Shown in pieces: positions 1,024 through 49,851 of a stretch of 64,000 nucleotides of DNA (within the stretch, counting starts at the first letter, position 1; every line of letters begins with the position of its first letter). The stretch is taken from assembly GCA_040290255.1 (NCBI GenBank), contig PSMU01000004.1:1-64000 (forward strand). Direction: 5' to 3'. Under the pieces are notes generated by a model. That model saw nothing but the letters and a program-made list of their open reading frames with translations, did not search any database and had not been told where the DNA came from. The stretch comes from Nitrososphaerota archaeon. Lineage in GTDB: Archaea > Thermoproteota > Nitrososphaeria > PSMU01. A program made the position numbers and the translations under genes.

Positions 1024-2418
1024 GTGAGGGGGCTGGCCTACAGGAAGGAGGCCCTGGACCCTCTCTACGGCTACATCTACCTCACGGAGCTGGAGGTGAG
1101 GCTCATCGACACGCCCATCTTTCAGAGGCTGGATAGGCTGCTCCAGAACTTCAGCGCCCACTATGCCTTTCCCAGCGCCACGCATACGCGCAAGGCCCAT
1201 GCGCTGGGCGTGATGAGCCTGGCCCACAGGGCCCTGGCCAAGCTGCTCTTCAGGCTCAGGCCTCATCATGGCGCGGCGCTGCTCTTCGTGCCCACCACGC
1301 TGGAGGAGAGGGGGCCGGGGCTGGAGGATTACTACGTCGAGGGCTTTGACTGGTGGAACGAAAGGCTCGAGCGGGGGAGGTTCAGCGAGCTGCTGCAGGC
1401 CATGCGCCTGGCCGCGCTCCTACATGACGTGGGCCATGCCCCGCTCTCCCATGTCTTCGAGGAGGCCTGCCGCGCGCTCGGGCTGGACTTCGACCACGAG
1501 AAGAGGTCGCTGGAGCTGATGGAGCGGCTGGGCGAGGGGCTCAGGGGAAGGGCCGGGGAGGTGATGCGGGGAGCCCTGGAGCTCTTCAGGCGCGTGGTCG
1601 AGCCCGGGCATCGCTCATACGTGAAGGAGCTGCTTTCGGGCCCCATGGACGTCGATAAGATCGATTACCTGAACAGGGACGGCTACCATTCGGGGGCCCT
1701 GGAGTACGGCCTCATAGACCAGGAGCGCATCCTCGACTCCTTCTACGTCAAGCAAGGGCAGCTGGTCTTCCTGAGCTCCAACCTGCCCTCCGTGCTCAGG
1801 GCCTTCGCCTCGGCGGAGCAGATGTACAGGAACGTCTTCTACCATAAGACCTCGCGCAACGTGGACCTCATGTGCGTCGAGATGCTCAGGGCCGCGAGGC
1901 CCGTCGTGGAGAGGCTGCTCGCCTCCCGCGAGCCCTTCGAGGGCTATGGCGACTATGAGCTGCTCCGGGAGCTGGCCAGGGCGGACCTGCCCAGGGCCTC
2001 GGAGCTGGCCCAGGGCCTGCTCTCGAGGAGGCTTTACTTCAAGGCGCTCTACCAGGCCCCCGTGCCCAGGGATCGCTTCACGGAGGAGCTGAGGCGGGCC
2101 CTTGCCGAGCTGGAGCAGCGCTACTCGGAGCTGCAGGCGCGCATAGACCACGTGGAGGCCAGGCCCATAAGGCAGGAGTACGGGGCCCTAAGCTCCTGGC
2201 TCCGCGCGCCCAAGGTCTATCTGCCCGAGGAGGATAGGCTGCTCTCGCTGCGGGAGGCGCAGCCCCTGCTGGAGGAGCTGGCCCTGCGCTTCAGCGTGGA
2301 TGTGAGGGTCTTCGTGGCCAGGCGCTTGGCCAAGCACCCCAGGGCGGAGGCCCTCGTGCGCGAGGCCAGGGCGCTCCTAGGCCCTGGCGCCCCTCCTGCC
2401 CCTCCTCCTTATCGCTAG
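1024..2418 (+). CDS. HD-domain phosphohydrolase (dNTP triphosphohydrolase/SAMHD1-like family)
   Basis: DPLYGYI, FQRL, HTRKAHALG, LLHDVGH, DVDKIDYLNRD, VFYHKT motifs. Confidence 0.9.
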   Translation: MRGLAYRKEALDPLYGYIYLTELEVRLIDTPIFQRLDRLLQNFSAHYAFPSATHTRKAHALGVMSLAHRALAKLLFRLRPHHGAALLFVPTTLEERGPGLEDYYVEGFDWWNERLERGRFSELLQAMRLAALLHDVGHAPLSHVFEEACRALGLDFDHEKRSLELMERLGEGLRGRAGEVMRGALELFRRVVEPGHRSYVKELLSGPMDVDKIDYLNRDGYHSGALEYGLIDQERILDSFYVKQGQLVFLSSNLPSVLRAFASAEQMYRNVFYHKTSRNVDLMCVEMLRAARPVVERLLASREPFEGYGDYELLRELARADLPRASELAQGLLSRRLYFKALYQAPVPRDRFTEELRRALAELEQRYSELQARIDHVEARPIRQEYGALSSWLRAPKVYLPEEDRLLSLREAQPLLEELALRFSVDVRVFVARRLAKHPRAEALVREARALLGPGAPPAPPPYR

Positions 2419-3579
2419 GAGGCGCCGCAGCAGCTCAAGGGCCGCCTGATAGTGCTGCGCGCCCACCTCGCTCAGGGCCATCTCCCGGGCCCTGGCCTTC
2501 GCCACCTCCTGAAGGAACGTGAGCGCCTGCCGGGCCCCCAGCTCGGGCCTTTCGTCGAGCAGCCGCGCCAGCTCCTCCTTCACGGGCCCGGGCAGGGGCT
2601 CCAGCCTCAGCTCGGCCAGCGAGGGCCTGGGCAGGGCCTGCACCCTGGCCTCCGCGAGCGCAAGCCGCGCCCTGCCGCTCAGCCTGGGCAGGCGGAGCAC
2701 CGCGGGCACCTCGCCCAGCAGCCACCTGGGCAGGCCCTGCTCCTCCCTGGCTATGAGCAGCGTCCTGGCGTGCAGCTCGAACTCCACCTCCTCCCCCTTC
2801 ACCTGCACGCTCGCCCTGCCCCCCCTCAGCAGGCCCCTGAGCACCCTCTGCTCCTCTGCCCTCATGGCCTCGAGCCCCTCCACGGGCACGACCCCGGGGC
2901 CCGAGAGGCGCTCCGCCAGCTCCCTCGCCTCAAGGGCCCCCAGGCTTATCCTCTGGTAGCCCATCGCCTCCAGCAGGGCCATCGCATAATCAGAGAAGCC
3001 CTCCCCCTCCTCGATCACGAGCACGTGCAGCCGATCGGAGAGCAGCAGCGCCCTGAGCAGCTCCATCGCCAGGAGCAGCGGGGGCTCCTCGAGCGGCGCG
3101 CGCAGCCGCCGCAGCAGCTCCTTCATGCCCTCGGCGCTGGGCCGGGGCATCAGCCTGGACCTTATGTAGCCCGCATACAGCCTCGCGTTGAGCTTGTACT
3201 CGAGCCAGGGCCCATAGCTGAGCGGCTGCTCCGCATTCCTCATGATGCGGAACTCATAGGCCCCGTCCAGGCCCCTCCTCTCGACCACGACGTAGGGCGA
3301 GAAGAGCCCCAGCCTTGCCTCTATCGCCCTGAGCGTGAGCTCGGGGTCATAGTCCTTCGAGGTCCTCACGACGATCGCCTCGGAGACGCTCACCTCCCTC
3401 ACGACCCTATCGGCCAGCGCGGCCCTGGCCCTGTTGACGGCCTTGAGCAGCTCCTCCTCCCAGCCCTTGAACCTCACATCATAAGGGTCGAGCCTTGCCA
3501 GGTCCTCCAGCGTCCTTATGCCGTTGAGCGCCAGCAGGCCCGAGAGGCGGGGGCTTATGCCCGTCAGCGCGCCCTCCAT
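2377..3579 (-). CDS. HhH-like N-terminal domain fused to a degenerate MCM-like AAA+ domain
   Basis: N-terminal GISPRLSGLLALNGIRTLEDLA; the C-terminal half follows MCM motif order with Walker A, Walker B and arginine finger substituted. Confidence 0.65.
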   Translation of the reverse strand: MEGALTGISPRLSGLLALNGIRTLEDLARLDPYDVRFKGWEEELLKAVNRARAALADRVVREVSVSEAIVVRTSKDYDPELTLRAIEARLGLFSPYVVVERRGLDGAYEFRIMRNAEQPLSYGPWLEYKLNARLYAGYIRSRLMPRPSAEGMKELLRRLRAPLEEPPLLLAMELLRALLLSDRLHVLVIEEGEGFSDYAMALLEAMGYQRISLGALEARELAERLSGPGVVPVEGLEAMRAEEQRVLRGLLRGGRASVQVKGEEVEFELHARTLLIAREEQGLPRWLLGEVPAVLRLPRLSGRARLALAEARVQALPRPSLAELRLEPLPGPVKEELARLLDERPELGARQALTFLQEVAKARAREMALSEVGAQHYQAALELLRRLLAIRRRGRRGARA

Positions 3580-3580
3580 G

Positions 3581-3690
3581 CCCGCTCAGCGCGGCTCATC
3601 GCTTCGGGGGCGGCTCCTCCCAATGCCTTCCGTTCATCGTCTCCTCTCCGTAACTCTGACCGCACGTCATCGCCGCCTTTCTGAGGCGGG
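3581..3690 (-). ncRNA. Candidate box C/D-like (K-turn) structured RNA, copy 1
   Basis: Three CGAUGA motifs, CGGA and CUGA D-like boxes, GGCGGC/GCCGCC stem, upstream AAAGCTTATA promoter; core shared with 56798-56831. Confidence 0.55.
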
Positions 3691-3700
3691 AGGGCGGGGC

Positions 3701-3710
3701 TATAAGCTTT
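3701..3710 (-). promoter_or_regulatory. BRE/TATA element
   Basis: AAAGCTTATA on the minus strand, about 24 nt upstream of the GGCGGC that opens the RNA stem. Confidence 0.55.
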
Positions 3711-3752
3711 GGGGCACAACCGATAAAAGGCGGCGCGCCGCGAGAGGGGCAG

Positions 3753-5699
3753 ATGGGCTACCTCTGGCAGCCCCCCAGGGAGCTGGCGGAGCGCGCGAAC
3801 CTGCGCCCGCTCATGGAGAGGCTGAGGCTCGACAGCTACGCGGAGCTGGTGAGGTGGAGCATAACGCGCCTGGAGAACTTCTGGGCGCGGCTGCCCGAGG
3901 AGCTGGGCGTGGAGTGGTTCCGCCCTCCTAGGCAGGTCGTGGACCTCTCCAGGGGGCCCGAGTGGGCGCGCTGGTATGGAGGGGGCGCGCTGAACGTAGC
4001 TTACAACGCCCTCGAGAGGCCCGCGAGGCTCAGGGGCCCCCATCCGGCCGTCATCTGGAGGGGGGAGGATGGCCGCAGGAGGGCGCTCAGCTATTCCCAG
4101 CTGAACGAGGATGCCAGCAGGCTCGCGGGCTACCTGGCCGAGCTGGGCGTGGGGCCCGGCGATAGGGTGGCGCTCTATCTCCCCATGCTGCCCGAGACGG
4201 TGGCCTCCCTCTTTGCCCCCCTCAAGCTGGGCGCGATCGCGATGCCCATCTTCTCGGGCTTTGCGCCCGAAGCCGTAAGCGTGAGGCTCAGGGATGCGGA
4301 GCCCAAGGCGCTCATAACCTGCGATGGCTACCTCAGGAGGGGTAATAGGGTGGGGCTGCTGGACCAGGCCAGGGAGGCGCTGAAGCTCTCGGGCCTCGGC
4401 GCCAAGCTCATCGTGGTGGAGAGGCTGGGCGGCCTCGAGCTGCTCGAGGGGGAGGTGAGCTATGAGGAGGCCATAAGGGAGGGCGAGCCCTTGGCGAGCA
4501 GGGCGCTGGACCCCGAGCACCCCGCGCTGCTGCTCTACAGCTCGGGCACCACGGGCCGGCCCAAGGGCTGCGTGATCTCACATGCGGGCGCGCTGCTGCA
4601 GCCCTCCAAGGAGATCTTCTATAACCTGGACCTAAAGCCCGAGGAGCGCCTGCTCTGGGTCACGGACATAGGCTGGATGATGGGCCCTTGGCAGATGATC
4701 GGCGCGCAGTTCCTGGGCGCCACGCACATCATCCTGGAGGGGGCCATCGACTATCCCCCCTCCAGGCTGTGGCGCATCGTGGAGCAGGAGAGGGTCACGC
4801 ACCTGGGCTTCGCGGCCACGGTGGCGAGGCTGCTGAGGCGCTACGGCAGGGATGCGCTGCTGGAGCACGACCTCTCTTCGCTGCGCGTCTTCGGCAACAC
4901 GGGCGAGCCCATAGACCCCGGCACCTGGCTCTGGCTGATGAAGGAGGTGGGCGAGGAGAGGTGCCCCATCATCAACCTCTCCGGCGGCACGGAGATCTTC
5001 GGCTGCTTCCTGCTCCCCTCGCCGCTCGTCCCGCTCAAGCCCTCCACGCTCTGGGGGCCGGGCCTGGGCATGGACGTCGACGTCTTCGATGAGCAGGGCA
5101 GGCCCGTGAGGGGCCAGGTGGGCTACCTCGTGGCGAAGAGCCCCGCACCCTCGATGACCAGGGGCTTCTGGAGGGATGAGGCGAGGTACCTGGAGACCTA
5201 CTGGTCCAGGTTCAGGGGCGTCTGGTATCATGGCGACTGGGCGCTCATCGATGAGGAGGGCTACTGGTTCCTGCTGGGCAGGGCCGATGACGTGATCAAG
5301 GCGGCGGGCAAGAGGGTGGGCCCCGCGGAGATAGAGGCCCTGCTGAACGCGCACCCCCTCGTGGCGGAGTCGGCCTGCGTGGGCGTGCCCAGCGAGCTGA
5401 AGGGCGAGGAGGTGGCCTGCTTCGTGGCGCTGAAGCGCGGCGCGGAGCCCTACCCGGGCCTGGAGGAGGAGCTGAGGAGGCGCGTGAGGAGGGGGCTGGG
5501 CAGGGCCTTCGAGCCCTCCTATCTGCTCTTCGTGCCCTCGCTCCCCAGGACCCGCTCGGGCAAGATCATGAGGAGGCTGCTGAGGGCCGCGGCGCTGGGC
5601 CAGCAGGTGGGCGATGTGAGCGCGCTGGAGAACCCCGAGGCCCTGGAGCAGGCCAGGGCGGCCTGGGAGGCGATGAGGCAGCGTGGGCTCGTGGCCTAG
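3753..5699 (+). CDS. acs: AMP-forming acetyl/acyl-CoA synthetase
   Basis: YSSGTTGRPKG AMP-binding loop, DIGWMMG, GRADDVIK, PRTRSGKIMRR. Confidence 0.85.
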   Translation: MGYLWQPPRELAERANLRPLMERLRLDSYAELVRWSITRLENFWARLPEELGVEWFRPPRQVVDLSRGPEWARWYGGGALNVAYNALERPARLRGPHPAVIWRGEDGRRRALSYSQLNEDASRLAGYLAELGVGPGDRVALYLPMLPETVASLFAPLKLGAIAMPIFSGFAPEAVSVRLRDAEPKALITCDGYLRRGNRVGLLDQAREALKLSGLGAKLIVVERLGGLELLEGEVSYEEAIREGEPLASRALDPEHPALLLYSSGTTGRPKGCVISHAGALLQPSKEIFYNLDLKPEERLLWVTDIGWMMGPWQMIGAQFLGATHIILEGAIDYPPSRLWRIVEQERVTHLGFAATVARLLRRYGRDALLEHDLSSLRVFGNTGEPIDPGTWLWLMKEVGEERCPIINLSGGTEIFGCFLLPSPLVPLKPSTLWGPGLGMDVDVFDEQGRPVRGQVGYLVAKSPAPSMTRGFWRDEARYLETYWSRFRGVWYHGDWALIDEEGYWFLLGRADDVIKAAGKRVGPAEIEALLNAHPLVAESACVGVPSELKGEEVACFVALKRGAEPYPGLEEELRRRVRRGLGRAFEPSYLLFVPSLPRTRSGKIMRRLLRAAALGQQVGDVSALENPEALEQARAAWEAMRQRGLVA

Positions 5700-6517: not shown

Positions 6518-7474
6518 ATGGCGGAGGCGGTGGCCTGCGGCAAGCTCATCCTGCTGGGCGAGCACTTCGTGCTCTACGGCGCCCCCGCGCTGGTGCTGGC
6601 CGGCGGGCCCAAGGTGAGGGTGCAGGCCAGCCGGGCCGAGGAGGATAGGCTCCTCTCGCCCTCCCTCTCGCTGGACGTGCGCCTGGCCGCCGCGCCGCCC
6701 CCCGCCGCCCGGCCCTTCGCTTCCCTGCTCTCCAGGCTGAAGCGCGAGGCGGGCTATAGGGGGGGCGTGCGCCTGCTCATCCGCTCGAGCATTCCCGTGG
6801 GCCAGGGCCTGGGCTCCTCGGGGGCCGTGCTCGTGGCCAGCGCCGCGGCCGTCAATTCGCTGCTGGGCCTGGGCCTGAGCAGGGAGGAGCTGGCCAGGGT
6901 TGCGCTGGAGGCGGAGCAGCTCGTGCACGGCAGGAGCTCGGGCATCGATGTCTTCGCCCCCCTCTACGGCGGCCTGCTGCTCTACAGCAGCGGGCGAGGC
7001 ATCCTGCGCAGGAGGCCCAGGGCCGGGCTCCCGCTGGTGCTGGCCTTCAGCGGCGTGAAGAGGAGCACGAGGCGGGTCATCGAGAGGGTCTCCTCCTGGA
7101 GGGAGGCCCATCCCCACACCTTCTCGCTCTTGGCCCGGCAGGTGGGCTCCTGGGCCGAGGAGGGCTTTGGCCTGGCCGAAGAGGGGGAGCTGGAGAGGCT
7201 GGGCCTGCTCATGACGCTCAACCATTGCCTCCTCTCGCTGCTGGGCGCCTCTCATCCCAGGCTCGACGGGCTGGTGAACGAGAGCCTCGCAAGGGGCGCC
7301 CTGGGCGCCAAGCTGAGCGGCGGAGGGGGAGGGGGCGTGGCCGCCGTGCTCGTCAGAAAAGGCCAGCAGGGACGGCTGAGCAGGGAGCTGCGCGAGAGGG
7401 GCTTTCGGGCGCTGCCCTTCAGGCCCTCCTCCGAGGGCGTGAGCGTGCGCGGGGGCTCGGCCAGGAAAGCTTAA
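6518..7474 (+). CDS. mvk: Mevalonate kinase
   Basis: GKLILLGEHFVLYG, PVGQGLGSSGA GHMP motif, SGID, GAKLSGGGGGG; isoprenoid gene context. Confidence 0.92.
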   Translation: MAEAVACGKLILLGEHFVLYGAPALVLAGGPKVRVQASRAEEDRLLSPSLSLDVRLAAAPPPAARPFASLLSRLKREAGYRGGVRLLIRSSIPVGQGLGSSGAVLVASAAAVNSLLGLGLSREELARVALEAEQLVHGRSSGIDVFAPLYGGLLLYSSGRGILRRRPRAGLPLVLAFSGVKRSTRRVIERVSSWREAHPHTFSLLARQVGSWAEEGFGLAEEGELERLGLLMTLNHCLLSLLGASHPRLDGLVNESLARGALGAKLSGGGGGGVAAVLVRKGQQGRLSRELRERGFRALPFRPSSEGVSVRGGSARKA

Positions 7475-12532: not shown

Positions 12533-12931
12533 ATGAGCCAGCCCGCGGCCAAGGGGAGCTCGAGGGGCAAGCCCTATTATGTGAAGTTCGAGACGCCCAG
12601 CGCGCTGGTCGAGGGCGCGCTGCAGGCCGTGCAGAGGGCCCTGGAGACGGGCAAGGTGAAGAGGGGCACCAACGAGGTGACGAAGGCCGTGGAGAGGGGC
12701 GTGGCGAAGCTCGTGCTGATCGCGGAGGACGTGGACCCGCCCGAGGTGGTCGCCCACCTGCCCATGCTCTGCGAGGAGAAGGCCGTGCCCTATCTCTACG
12801 TGCCCAGCAGGGCGGAGCTGGGCAAGGCCTCGGGCCTCGAGGTGCCCGCCGCCTCCGTCGCGATCCTGGATCCCGGCGAGGCAAAGCAGCTCGTGGAGCA
12901 GCTGGTGGCGAGCCTCAGGGCCGGCAAGTAG
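12533..12931 (+). CDS. rpl7ae: Ribosomal/K-turn-binding protein L7Ae
   Basis: [28 protein letters not shown]. Confidence 0.97.
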
Positions 12932-49746: not shown

Positions 49747-49851
49747 GGGCCGGTGGTCTAGCCTGGTAGGACGTCGCCCTCACACGGCGAAGGGGCGCTG
49801 GCCTCGCAGGTCCTGGGTTCGAAGCCTCGCGCGAAACTCCCAGCCGGCCCA
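49747..49851 (+). tRNA. tRNA-Val(CAC) with two non-canonical introns
   Basis: Anticodon CAC at 49781-49783; introns 49793-49809 (45/46) and 49824-49837 (59/60) with BHB motifs. Confidence 0.92.

What the first reader, a model, noticed from the sequence alone, without database searches (positions are those of the whole stretch)
3581..3690. Box C/D-like RNA with apparent 23S rRNA H69/H71 antisense elements, in the leader of the dead-MCM gene
Seen (minus strand): GGCGGC-GAUGA-CGUGCGGUCAGAGUUA-CGGA-GAGGAGA-CGAUGA-ACGGAAGGCAUU-GGGA-GGA-GCCGCC, then a third CGAUGA..CUGA that ends a few nt before the ATG; a BRE/TATA lies upstream. The plus strand reads GTAACTCTGACC (3650-3661) and AATGCCTT (3622-3629), which from memory match neighbouring conserved segments of TACK 23S rRNA (GUAACUCUGACC in helix 69; AAAUGCCUU near helix 71). 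Known: archaeal double-guide C/D sRNAs often target adjacent sites. Unusual: three C boxes, non-canonical D boxes, and continuity with an mRNA.
Basis: partly seen in the sequence, partly recalled or inferred. Interest (0 to 1): 0.7.

Follow-up and report, generated by a model that had tools for sequence, protein, structure and literature searches.

The report
Box C/D-like guide RNA against 23S helix 69/71
A short RNA gene sitting in front of a protein gene looks like an archaeal methylation-guide RNA aimed at two neighbouring spots of the large ribosomal RNA, an ordinary kind of element except that its closing sequence motifs depart from the usual consensus.

Summary
On the minus strand, 3677-3609 reads GGCGGC-GAUGA-16 nt-CGGA-GAGGAGA-CGAUGA-12 nt-GGGA-GGA-GCCGCC. 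One is a perfect 12-mer at LSU 2036-2047 (helix 69 loop). The other is a perfect 8-mer at LSU 2063-2070, which starts 27 nt downstream of the first match.

One 12-mer alone is not significant genome-wide. The combination is: a double-box layout, two anchored guides on adjacent rRNA sites, a 6-bp closing stem, and a TATA box 26 nt upstream. It is the best such locus of 24 parses in 1.2 Mb, and about 4e-4 are expected by chance before the stem and TATA are counted.

Fibrillarin, Nop5 and L7Ae genes are present. A canonical Nanopusillus sRNA carries the same anti-H69 guide core.

My best reading is a dual-guide C/D-type sRNA transcribed from its own promoter and running on into the downstream mRNA. 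The D box consensus CUGA is not met (AGGA or GGGA), the D' spacer is long, and no Rfam family matches. I therefore call it a variant, not a proven member. There are no expression or methylation data.

The parts
3699..3710 (-). BRE/TATA-like promoter element (AAAGCTTATAGC). The TTATA centre at 3703 lies 26 nt upstream of G3677.
   Evidence: sequence. In one search only 2.9% of random genome positions have a TATA-like 5-mer at -34..-20. The divergent ACS gene has its own ATAAAA (3723-3728) about 27 nt before its ATG at 3753, which shows the same spacing rule locally.
3672..3677 (-). 5' strand of the terminal stem (GGCGGC) and the predicted transcript start.
   Evidence: Perfect 6-bp complement to 3614-3609. 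The stem is present in the MFE fold of the 69-nt RNA. P(stem >= 6) = 0.0068 for random flanks.
3667..3673 (-). C box GCGAUGA, matching 6 of 7 positions of RUGAUGA.
3650..3666 (-). D' spacer (16 nt) with guide core GGUCAGAGUUA(C). It forms 12 contiguous Watson-Crick pairs with own 23S 2036-2047 (helix 69 loop). N+5 from CGGA is U2041 (E. coli U1915 equivalent).
   Evidence: Numbering plus recall.
3647..3650 (-). D' box CGGA (3 of 4 positions of CUGA; GA kept).
3634..3639 (-). C' box CGAUGA (5 of 6 positions of UGAUGA).
3619..3633 (-). D spacer. AAGGCAUU forms 8 contiguous pairs with 23S 2063-2070. If the D box is AGGA, the guide is AAGGCAUUgGG (10 pairs plus one G.A mismatch, 2060-2070). N+5 is then C2067 for the GGGA box or A2064 for the AGGA box.
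3615..3621 (-). D box region GGGAGGA, read either as GGGA (3621-3618, 12-nt spacer) or AGGA (3618-3615, directly abutting the stem). Neither is CUGA.
   Evidence: With AGGA and a GGC/GCC C-stem the motif has a 3-nt bulge, tandem G.A pairs, 3b:3n = U:G and -1b:-1n = C:G. This is my inference from the k-turn rules in PMC4382518 (abstract) and PMC5689011 (Discussion).
3609..3614 (-). 3' strand of the terminal stem (GCCGCC).
3580..3608 (-). Third C/D-box pair: GCGAUGA (3602-3596), GCCGCG, CUGA (3589-3586), flanked by CCCC/GGGG-type pairing and ending 6 nt before the ATG. It is a k-turn-like hairpin or a remnant half-module.
   Evidence: GATGA-N4-9-CTGA occurs 107 times in 2.43 M strand-bases, so 0.0013 are expected per 30-nt window. 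The MFE hairpin is -14.7 kcal/mol.
2377..3579 (-). Downstream ORF (400 aa) with no own promoter motif, so it is probably co-transcribed. Weak MCM-like stretch at residues 225-298.
   Evidence: The N-terminus MEGAL... is conserved in the only homologue, P0002 (69% identity).

Best explanation
The minus strand 3677-3609 encodes a roughly 69-nt dual-guide RNA of the box C/D type. Transcription starts about 26 nt downstream of the TATA box, at the 5' strand of a 6-bp terminal stem. The C box GCGAUGA and a GA-containing 3' box (AGGA or GGGA) would form a terminal k-turn. CGGA and CGAUGA would form the internal k-loop. L7Ae, Nop5 and fibrillarin, all encoded in the genome, would assemble on these motifs.

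The D' guide pairs with the loop of 23S helix 69 and places the U1915-equivalent nucleotide (LSU U2041) at the N+5 position for 2'-O-methylation. By clamping the two sites it also acts as a local folding chaperone.

There is no terminator, so the transcript runs into the 400-aa ORF. The sRNP-protected part is either trimmed out or stays on the leader.

Shown: the sequence layout, the complementarity, the promoter spacing, the presence of the protein genes, and the rarity of the combination. Inferred: transcription, RNP assembly, methylation and processing.
For: - Exact 12-mer and 8-mer complements to the organism's own 23S lie 27 nt apart, each anchored at a GA-containing box.
- This is the best of 24 double-box parses genome-wide, both in stem length (6) and in complementarity.
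- Chance estimate: 24 x (9/6464 for an anchored match >= 12) x (about 1.3e-2 for a second guide >= 8 within +-100 nt) is about 4e-4 per genome. Multiplying by 0.0068 (stem) and 0.029 (TATA) gives about 1e-7.
- The D' guide's best duplex anywhere in 16S+23S is the H69 site (-21.8 kcal/mol).
- Fibrillarin, Nop5 and L7Ae genes are present.
- Nanopusillus acidilobi has a canonical sRNA, GUGAUGA-AGGUCAGAGUUAG-CUGA-UACA-UGAUGA-...-CUGA. It carries the same anti-H69 core, and its second guide pairs 51 nt away on its own 23S.
- Dennis et al. 2015 (PMC4644070, passages read) name helices 68, 69 and 71 as methylation hotspots, count 262/489 sRNAs as double guides within 100 nt, and relax the criterion for the second guide.
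- Lui et al. 2018 (PMC6009581, passages read) count 237/526 sRNAs with both guides aimed within 100 nt, and describe co-transcription with mRNAs and non-canonical K-motifs.
- A roughly 98%-identical strain (X6; X7 looks like the same data) has 18 substitutions and 1 deletion across 3237-4100 but none in 3566-3729 (P about 0.018).
Against: - The D box is not CUGA; only GA is kept. D' is CGGA.
- The D' spacer is 16 nt against the usual roughly 12 nt.
- The 6-bp stem abuts GAUGA, so the 3-nt bulge exists only in a shifted 3-bp register.
- No Rfam family matches the region at E <= 10 or at gathering score.
- Under mismatch- and G:U-tolerant scoring each guide alone is unremarkable. For D', 6/60 shuffles reach its score. 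For D read with GGGA, the H71 site ranks second behind an SSU site and 7/60 shuffles reach the top score. For D read with AGGA, 34/60 shuffles do.
- Genome-wide there is no excess of rRNA-complementary half-mers over the controls. Few canonical C/D sRNAs were found, so the local repertoire is unclear.
- No homologous locus was found in 40 relatives, and the guide was not seen in a C/D context in 400 genomes of the class.
- The fold energy of the leader is no better than shuffles (z = 0.24).
- Over the 69-nt RNA alone, the lack of strain differences is not significant (P about 0.21).
Confidence: 0.6

Rival explanations
1. It is a decaying or methylation-inactive C/D-derived RNA. It arose as a dual-guide sRNA, but its D and D' boxes have drifted. 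It may still bind L7Ae and pair with helix 69/71 as a chaperone only, or do nothing, without directing methylation.
For: Non-consensus D (AGGA/GGGA) and D' (CGGA) boxes and a 16-nt D' spacer. The second guide has only 8 contiguous pairs. No Rfam match. Lui et al. removed one Pyrobaculum candidate for lack of a recognisable D box, and report that a dual guide can leave an 'orphan' half that may still aid folding (PMC6009581, passages read).
Against: All four GA dinucleotides needed for the tandem sheared pairs are intact. The 12-nt guide is perfect and in N+5 register. There are no differences in 3566-3729 in a 2%-diverged strain. 3n = G and -1n = G favour k-turn folding (PMC4382518 abstract; PMC5689011 Discussion).
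Confidence: 0.17
2. It is primarily a regulatory mRNA leader. L7Ae binds one or more k-turn-like motifs, above all the GCGAUGA-GCCGCG-CUGA hairpin that ends 6 nt before the ATG, and represses or times translation of the 400-aa ORF. The rRNA complementarity is secondary.
For: The third C/D pair has canonical GAUGA and CUGA and sits next to the start codon (0.0013 expected per 30-nt window). There is no separate promoter for the ORF and no terminator. L7Ae represses translation through 5'-UTR k-turns in Sulfolobus (PMC5539422, abstract). Lui et al. raise exactly this possibility for sense-overlapping sRNAs (PMC6009581, Discussion passage).
Against: In a k-turn register the third motif has a 5-nt bulge, not 3 nt, and its MFE structure is a plain hairpin. 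This reading does not explain two anchored guides on adjacent rRNA sites. The downstream gene is not an sRNP component.
Confidence: 0.12
3. It is a chance resemblance in a GC-rich leader. This includes the reading that the in-frame AUG...AUG...UGA of the three boxes is a 24-codon upstream ORF.
For: Anchored matches of 12 nt or more occur 2-5 times per genome against control targets. Triplets of CGATGA within 76 nt are expected about once per genome (my estimate from the counts). The three boxes lie in one frame and give MTCGQSYGEETMNGRHWEEPPPKR*. The fold z-score is 0.24.
Against: The joint expectation for the double-box layout with adjacent dual guides is about 4e-4 per genome, far lower once the stem and TATA are included. 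No support for the uORF was found.
Confidence: 0.05

Closest known systems
Archaeal double-guide box C/D sRNAs that target 23S domain IV (helices 68/69/71), e.g. the Nanopusillus acidilobi sRNA found here at L058 (CP010514.1)
   Same: The order C, guide, D', loop, C', guide, D. The same guide core, GGUCAGAGUUA, against the helix 69 loop. Both guides pair within 100 nt of each other on 23S. Each has its own promoter-like AT-rich element upstream. The hotspot and double-guide behaviour are as described in PMC4644070 and PMC6009581.
   Different: Here D is AGGA or GGGA and D' is CGGA instead of CUGA. C and C' begin with C, not U. The D' spacer is 16 nt against 13. The terminal stem is 6 G-C pairs and abuts GAUGA. 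The predicted target is U1915-equivalent rather than C1914-equivalent. The second guide points downstream (H71 side) rather than upstream (H68 side).
C/D box sRNAs co-transcribed with, or overlapping, the 5' end of protein genes (Pyrobaculum, Sulfolobus, Pyrococcus; Lui et al. 2018)
   Same: The sRNA is in sense orientation upstream of an ORF with no terminator between them. Excision of an RNP-protected sRNA from an mRNA has been proposed for those cases.
   Different: Here the sRNA lies entirely in the leader (30 nt between the stem end at 3609 and the ATG at 3579) and does not overlap the coding sequence, so both guides stay free to match rRNA. In Pyrobaculum, 88% of guides that overlap a 5' end are orphans (PMC6009581 passage).
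L7Ae-binding k-turns in archaeal 5' UTRs (l7ae and nop5-fibrillarin mRNAs; Daume et al. 2017, PMC5539422)
   Same: A GA/GA motif close to a start codon that could recruit L7Ae.
   Different: The gene is an unrelated MCM-like ORF. The motif next to the ATG would have a 5-nt bulge. It follows a complete guide-RNA module.
Ribosomal Kt-7-type k-turns (Lilley rules)
   Same: In the AGGA register the terminal motif has G at -1n and at 3n. Kt-7 combines these two G positions with 4b:4n = C:G, and Ashraf et al. link this set of elements to Mg-induced folding (PMC5689011 Discussion; PMC4382518 abstract).
   Different: Canonical box C/D k-turns have 3b:3n = U:U and 4b:4n = G:C and need protein to fold. 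Here they are U:G and G:A.

Membership tests
Archaeal box C/D sRNA | C box RUGAUGA near the 5' end | tested here: met
   GCGAUGA at 3673-3667 matches 6 of 7 positions, and the GAUGA core is intact. The U-to-C change falls at the bulge position L3.
Archaeal box C/D sRNA | D box CUGA near the 3' end | tested here: not met
   Only AGGA (3618-3615) or GGGA (3621-3618) is available, and only GA is conserved. The sole CUGA (3589-3586) lies 6 nt after a third C box and cannot bound a guide.
Archaeal box C/D sRNA | Internal D' and C' boxes (often degenerate) separated by a short loop | tested here: met
   CGGA (3 of 4), a 7-nt loop, and CGAUGA (5 of 6).
Archaeal box C/D sRNA | Guide spacers of about 12 nt | tested here: inconclusive
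   The D' spacer is 16 nt. The D spacer is 12 nt with GGGA or 15 nt with AGGA. An intergenic look-alike in the same genome (C3:79822-79875) has 15 and 15 nt.
Archaeal box C/D sRNA | Terminal C/D k-turn: short stem, 3-nt bulge, tandem G.A pairs | tested here: inconclusive
   There is a 6-bp perfect stem. A standard k-turn needs the shifted GGC/GCC register with a GGC bulge. The sequence is compatible, but folding and L7Ae binding were not tested.
Archaeal box C/D sRNA | Guide complementary (>= 9 bp, Watson-Crick at N+5) to rRNA or tRNA | tested here: met
   D' guide: 12 contiguous pairs to own 23S 2036-2047, with N+5 = A:U at U2041. D guide: 8 contiguous pairs, or 10 plus 1 mismatch. That is below the 9-bp rule and passes only under the criterion relaxed for double guides (PMC4644070 passage).
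Archaeal box C/D sRNA | For double guides, both targets within 100 nt on one rRNA | tested here: met
   The matches start 27 nt apart (LSU 2036 and 2063). The null frequency is 26-32 of 2155.
Archaeal box C/D sRNA | Host encodes L7Ae, Nop5 and fibrillarin | tested here: met
   PF01248 scores 110.6 bits at C5:12623-12892, PF01798 scores 228 bits and PF01269 scores 286 bits, the latter two on C3.
Archaeal box C/D sRNA | Stable small transcript, and 2'-O-methyl at the predicted nucleotide | not testable with these tools
   No RNA run was listed for this DNA. No modification data are available.
Archaeal box C/D sRNA | Match to a curated C/D family model (Rfam) | tested here: not met
   No hit overlaps 3580-3690 at E <= 10, and there is none at gathering score in the whole window. 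Rfam's archaeal C/D families are guide-specific, so this weighs little.
L7Ae-regulated mRNA leader k-turn | A k-turn in the 5' UTR close to the start codon, bound by L7Ae | tested here: inconclusive
   GAUGA at 3600-3596 and CUGA at 3589-3586 can form G.A, A.G, U.U and G-C pairs capped by a 7-nt loop, but with a 5-nt bulge. The MFE structure is an ordinary hairpin. Binding was not tested.

The most novel reading that the evidence does not exclude
The leader is a composite device, not just a guide-RNA gene. A C/D-type module has Kt-7-like (self-folding, 3n = G, -1n = G) k-turn sequences and stays attached to the mRNA. Together with the k-turn-like hairpin at the start codon, it couples translation of the MCM-like protein to L7Ae/sRNP availability, or to pairing with nascent 23S helix 69/71. 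This would link ribosome biogenesis to a replication-related gene.
Probability: 0.07. Interest if true: 0.7.

Novelty: new variant of a known kind. Interest (0 to 1): 0.38.

Why it matters
If confirmed, this adds a methylation guide for the helix 69/71 intersubunit-bridge region in a poorly sampled, GC-rich archaeal lineage that has only class-level relatives in the genome collection. It would show that a C/D-type RNP can work with NGGA in place of the CUGA D box, which bears on how sRNA-finding models are built. It would also give a clean natural case of an intact dual guide sitting in an mRNA leader next to a further k-turn-like hairpin, useful for studying sRNA excision and L7Ae control of translation. 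If the D-box variants prove inactive, it is an ordinary decaying sRNA.

Tried and rejected
- Comparative evidence failed. BLASTN of 3560-3730 against 40 relatives gave only noise of 20 nt or so.
- Locus scans gave no relative. The 400-aa protein was scanned alone in genome contigs, and an alignment with its single homologue P0002 was scanned in metagenome contigs.
- A degenerate DNA pattern for the conserved peptide found one unrelated hydrolase contig.
- The ACS neighbour only hit bacteria at 50% identity or less.
The same pattern in 400 genomes of the class hit 5, none in a C/D context.
- No RNA holder was listed among the public runs. Only DNA contigs could be laid.
- Scans for canonical sRNAs in the own genome gave few convincing loci and no statistical excess of any D-box word 11-13 nt after GATGA. 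The comparison with the reversed genome (8 loci against 1) is not a fair null, because GATGA and its reverse differ in frequency.
- An 11-nt antisense copy of the H69 guide at C3:142164 lies inside what reads as an NAD-kinase-like coding frame (my reading of the sequence; no profile search was run), so I took it as chance.
- The 11-mer shared with the L7Ae start (AGCGATGAGCC) occurs 7 times in the genome and carries no signal.
- The structure prediction of the ORF was too poor (pLDDT 54.9) for a fold search.
- Supplementary tables of PMC4644070 and PMC6009581 list exact predicted target positions. They could not be read and may show whether the 1915, 1938 or 1941 equivalents are targeted elsewhere.

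Full report
**Observation.**
- A TATA-like CTTATAG lies at 3706-3700.
- GGCGGC (3677-3672) is followed by GAUGA (3671-3667).
- A 16-nt spacer, CGUGCGGUCAGAGUUA, follows (3666-3651).
- Then come CGGA (3650-3647), GAGGAGA, and CGAUGA (3639-3634).
- A 12-nt spacer, ACGGAAGGCAUU, follows (3633-3622).
- Then come GGGA (3621-3618), GGA, and GCCGCC (3614-3609).
- After CCCGAA come a third GCGAUGA (3602-3596), GCCGCG, CUGA (3589-3586), GCGGGC, and the ATG of a 400-aa ORF (3579-2377).

The window is contig C5 of a 1.21-Mb, 9-contig, roughly 63-67% G+C archaeal assembly. Its only 23S rRNA gene is at C3:98103-101152. GTAACTCTGACC is at LSU 2036-2047, and AATGCCTT is at LSU 2063-2070.

**Register and targets.** With CGGA as D', the guide GGUCAGAGUUA plus the first box nucleotide forms 12 contiguous Watson-Crick pairs. 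The fifth nucleotide upstream of the box pairs with LSU U2041.

I aligned the region to a bacterial 23S record. That record is annotated as E. coli but is probably not a K-12-type sequence. I combined the alignment with recalled positions (psi1911/1915/1917 and m5U1939). Together they give an ungapped offset of 126.

For the second guide there are two registers.
- GGGA as D box gives a canonical 12-nt spacer, 8 pairs, and N+5 = C2067 (C1941 equivalent).
- AGGA (3618-3615) as D box abuts the terminal stem directly. It gives a 15-nt spacer, 10 pairs with one G.A mismatch (LSU 2060-2070), and N+5 = A2064 (A1938 equivalent).

I cannot decide between these from sequence.

**Is it more than chance?** A single match is not. 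Of 2155 GATGA-N9-17-NNGA half-mers in the genome, 3 reach an anchored perfect complement of 12 nt or more to the real rRNAs. Against reversed rRNA 2 do, and against antisense rRNA 5 do.

Under a mismatch- and G:U-tolerant score, results for each guide alone are also unremarkable.
- D' guide: the helix 69 site is the top target, but 6/60 shuffled guides reach its score.
- D guide with GGGA: the top target is an SSU site and LSU 2067 ranks second; 7/60 shuffles reach the top score.
- D guide with AGGA: LSU 2064 is the top target, but 34/60 shuffles reach its score.

The combination is another matter. Only 24 parses in the genome (both strands) fit GATGA-N10-17-NNGA-N3-10-GATGA-N10-14-NNGA. This locus ranks first both for terminal stem (6 perfect pairs) and for complementarity. 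Among random half-mers, a second anchored match of 8 nt or more within +-100 nt of the first occurs in 26-32 of 2155. A perfect stem of 6 or more occurs in 0.68% of random flanks. A TATA-like word at -34..-20 occurs at 2.9% of random positions.

The arithmetic is 24 x 9/6464 x 0.013, which is about 4e-4 expected per genome. Adding the stem and TATA terms brings it to about 1e-7.

The TTATA centre (3703) is 26 nt from G3677. The divergent acetyl-CoA synthetase gene has ATAAAA about 27 nt before its ATG at 3753. The same spacing rule therefore predicts a transcript that begins at the 5' strand of the stem.

**Context that bears on function.** Fibrillarin, Nop5 and L7Ae are encoded in the genome. 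The L7Ae gene itself lies in this window at 12533-12931.

No T-tract terminator-like site and no bacterial-type promoter were found in 3300-4000. By eye I see no second AT-rich element between 3609 and 3579. The ORF is therefore most likely read from the same transcript. Its N-terminus is fixed by the only homologue, P0002, which is 69% identical.

A strain about 2% diverged (run X6; X7 appears to be the same data) differs at 18 positions plus one deletion across 3237-4100. None of these differences falls in 3566-3729, and four lie in 3730-3752. This gives P about 0.018 for the 164-nt block, but only 0.21 for the 69-nt RNA alone. It is a weak sign of constraint.

No RNA run was listed, so expression is untested.

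**Precedent.** A pattern search for the guide core next to a C box mostly returned chance bacterial hits. One hit was in Nanopusillus acidilobi (L058). It is a textbook sRNA: GUGAUGA-AGGUCAGAGUUAG-CUGA-UACA-UGAUGA-CAUUCAGAUACCU-CUGA. Its D' guide matches its own 23S helix 69 over 11 nt. Its D guide matches over 11 nt, 51 nt upstream.

Dennis et al. 2015 (PMC4644070; passages read) state that helices 68, 69 and 71 are 2'-O-methylation hotspots, with a high density of predicted sites around E. coli A1912. They count 262/489 sRNAs as double guides within 100 nt, and they relax the 9-bp rule for the second guide.

Lui et al. 2018 (PMC6009581; passages read) report 237/526 Pyrobaculum sRNAs with both guides aimed within 100 nt of each other. 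They say 3-11% of known sRNAs are missed by their model because of non-canonical K-motifs. They discuss sRNAs co-transcribed with mRNAs, and the idea that an unexcised sRNA could attract L7Ae to an mRNA.

**What does not fit the family.** The D box consensus CUGA is absent, and D' is CGGA. C and C' begin with C instead of U. The D' spacer is 16 nt. The 6-bp stem abuts GAUGA, so a standard k-turn requires the shifted register GGC/GCC with GGC as the bulge.

In that register, with AGGA as D box, -1b:-1n = C:G, 3b:3n = U:G and 4b:4n = G:A. By Lilley's rules (PMC4382518, abstract; PMC5689011, Discussion read), G at 3n and at -1n favours folding even without protein. Canonical box C/D k-turns carry U:U and G:C and need L7Ae. 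The motif is therefore k-turn-competent on paper, but of a ribosomal rather than a C/D flavour. Whether Nop5-fibrillarin accepts it is unknown.

Rfam gives no hit on the element. The leader's fold energy is not unusual (z = 0.24). The 69-nt RNA folded alone does keep the terminal stem.

**The local repertoire.** Scans for canonical sRNAs found very few. No D-box word is enriched 11-13 nt after GATGA. A scan that required a TATA-like word, the double-box layout and a stem of 3 or more gave 8 loci.

The most gene-like of these is C3:79822-79875 (minus strand).
- It is intergenic, with no 100-aa frame across it.
- It has TTATATAT upstream and a GGGCC/GGCCC stem abutting GAUGA.
- Both of its boxes are CCGA.
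- Its spacers are 15 and 15 nt, and a T-tract follows.

Its guides have no significant rRNA or tRNA target. It hints that stems abutting GAUGA, CNGA boxes and long spacers may be a habit of this organism, but I could not establish that.

**The third C/D pair.** GAUGA (3600-3596) and CUGA (3589-3586) are 6 nt apart, too close to bound a guide. GATGA-N4-9-CTGA occurs 107 times in the genome, so 0.0013 are expected in a given 30-nt window. The pair can form G.A, A.G, U.U and G-C pairs capped by a 7-nt loop, next to CCCC/GGGG pairing, but with a 5-nt bulge. The MFE structure is a plain hairpin of -14.7 kcal/mol that ends 6 nt from the ATG.

It may be an L7Ae site that controls translation (compare Daume et al. 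2017, PMC5539422, abstract), a processing or stability element, or a remnant of a duplicated module.

The three boxes also lie in one reading frame and would encode a 24-residue peptide. I found nothing to support that reading.

**The downstream gene.** The ORF has no Pfam, NCBIfam or PDB sequence match, and the MCM model does not reach it at E <= 10. BLASTP against the AAA+ domain of the genome's own MCM aligns residues 225-298 with the Walker B-sensor 1 stretch (28% identity, E = 6e-4 for this single comparison). The acidic Walker B pair is altered. 'Degenerate MCM-like' is plausible but weakly supported. The AlphaFold model was too poor to use (pLDDT 54.9).

**Verdict.** The element is real in the statistical sense. 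It is best read as a dual-guide RNA of the C/D type aimed at the helix 69/71 hotspot, driven by its own promoter and continuous with an mRNA. Because a defining feature (D box CUGA) is not met, I do not file it as a proven member. I expect it to work like one (confidence about 0.6). The main rivals are a methylation-dead derivative and an L7Ae-responsive leader.

Noticed in passing
G000:C3:79822-79875 (minus strand; own genome, outside the window): An intergenic C/D-like locus. It has TTATATAT upstream and a GGGCC stem abutting GAUGA. Then come a 15-nt spacer, CCGA, a short loop, AGAUGA, a 15-nt spacer and CCGA. A GGCCC stem strand follows one nucleotide later, and then a T-tract. No rRNA or tRNA target was found for either guide.
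   Followed up: partly
G000:C8:6737-6788 and 6857-6904 (plus strand; own genome): Two promoter-linked C/D-like modules about 70 nt apart. The first has canonical UGAUGA and CUGA boxes with D' = CCGA. The second has D' = CUGA and D = CCGA, and ends about 12 nt before an ATG. The second module's D guide has a 9-nt match to tRNA-Leu(CAG), which is not significant against shuffles.
   Followed up: partly
L058 (CP010514.1, Nanopusillus acidilobi), minus strand around 7150-7230: A canonical double-guide C/D sRNA. Its D' guide pairs with helix 69 of its own 23S, and its D guide pairs 51 nt upstream.
   Followed up: yes
window 3723-3755 (+): The acetyl-CoA synthetase gene (3753-5699) appears leaderless. 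ATAAAA lies about 27 nt before its ATG, back-to-back with the minus-strand promoter. The 2%-diverged strain has 3 substitutions and a 1-nt deletion in this short spacer.
   Followed up: partly
window 2377-3579 (-): The 400-aa ORF has no family match. It has one homologue in 5.8 billion proteins and a weak pairwise similarity (E = 6e-4) to the Walker B-sensor 1 region of the genome's MCM. There are faint helix-hairpin-helix-like hits at the N-terminus (NusA C-terminal repeat, E = 0.02).
   Followed up: partly
window 12533-12931 (+): The L7Ae gene lies in the same window. Its start codon sits inside GCGAUGAGCC, and TTAAGAA lies about 27 nt upstream, so it is probably leaderless. I saw no convincing k-turn around the start.
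   Followed up: partly
window 49747-49805 (+): A tRNA model hit of only 59 nt, just above the gathering score (29.4 against 29 bits). It may be a truncated, split or intron-containing tRNA.
   Followed up: no
window 3596-3670 (-): The AUGs of the first two boxes and the UGA of the third lie in one frame, giving a 24-codon upstream ORF. A second short uORF from the third box overlaps the main ATG out of frame.
   Followed up: partly
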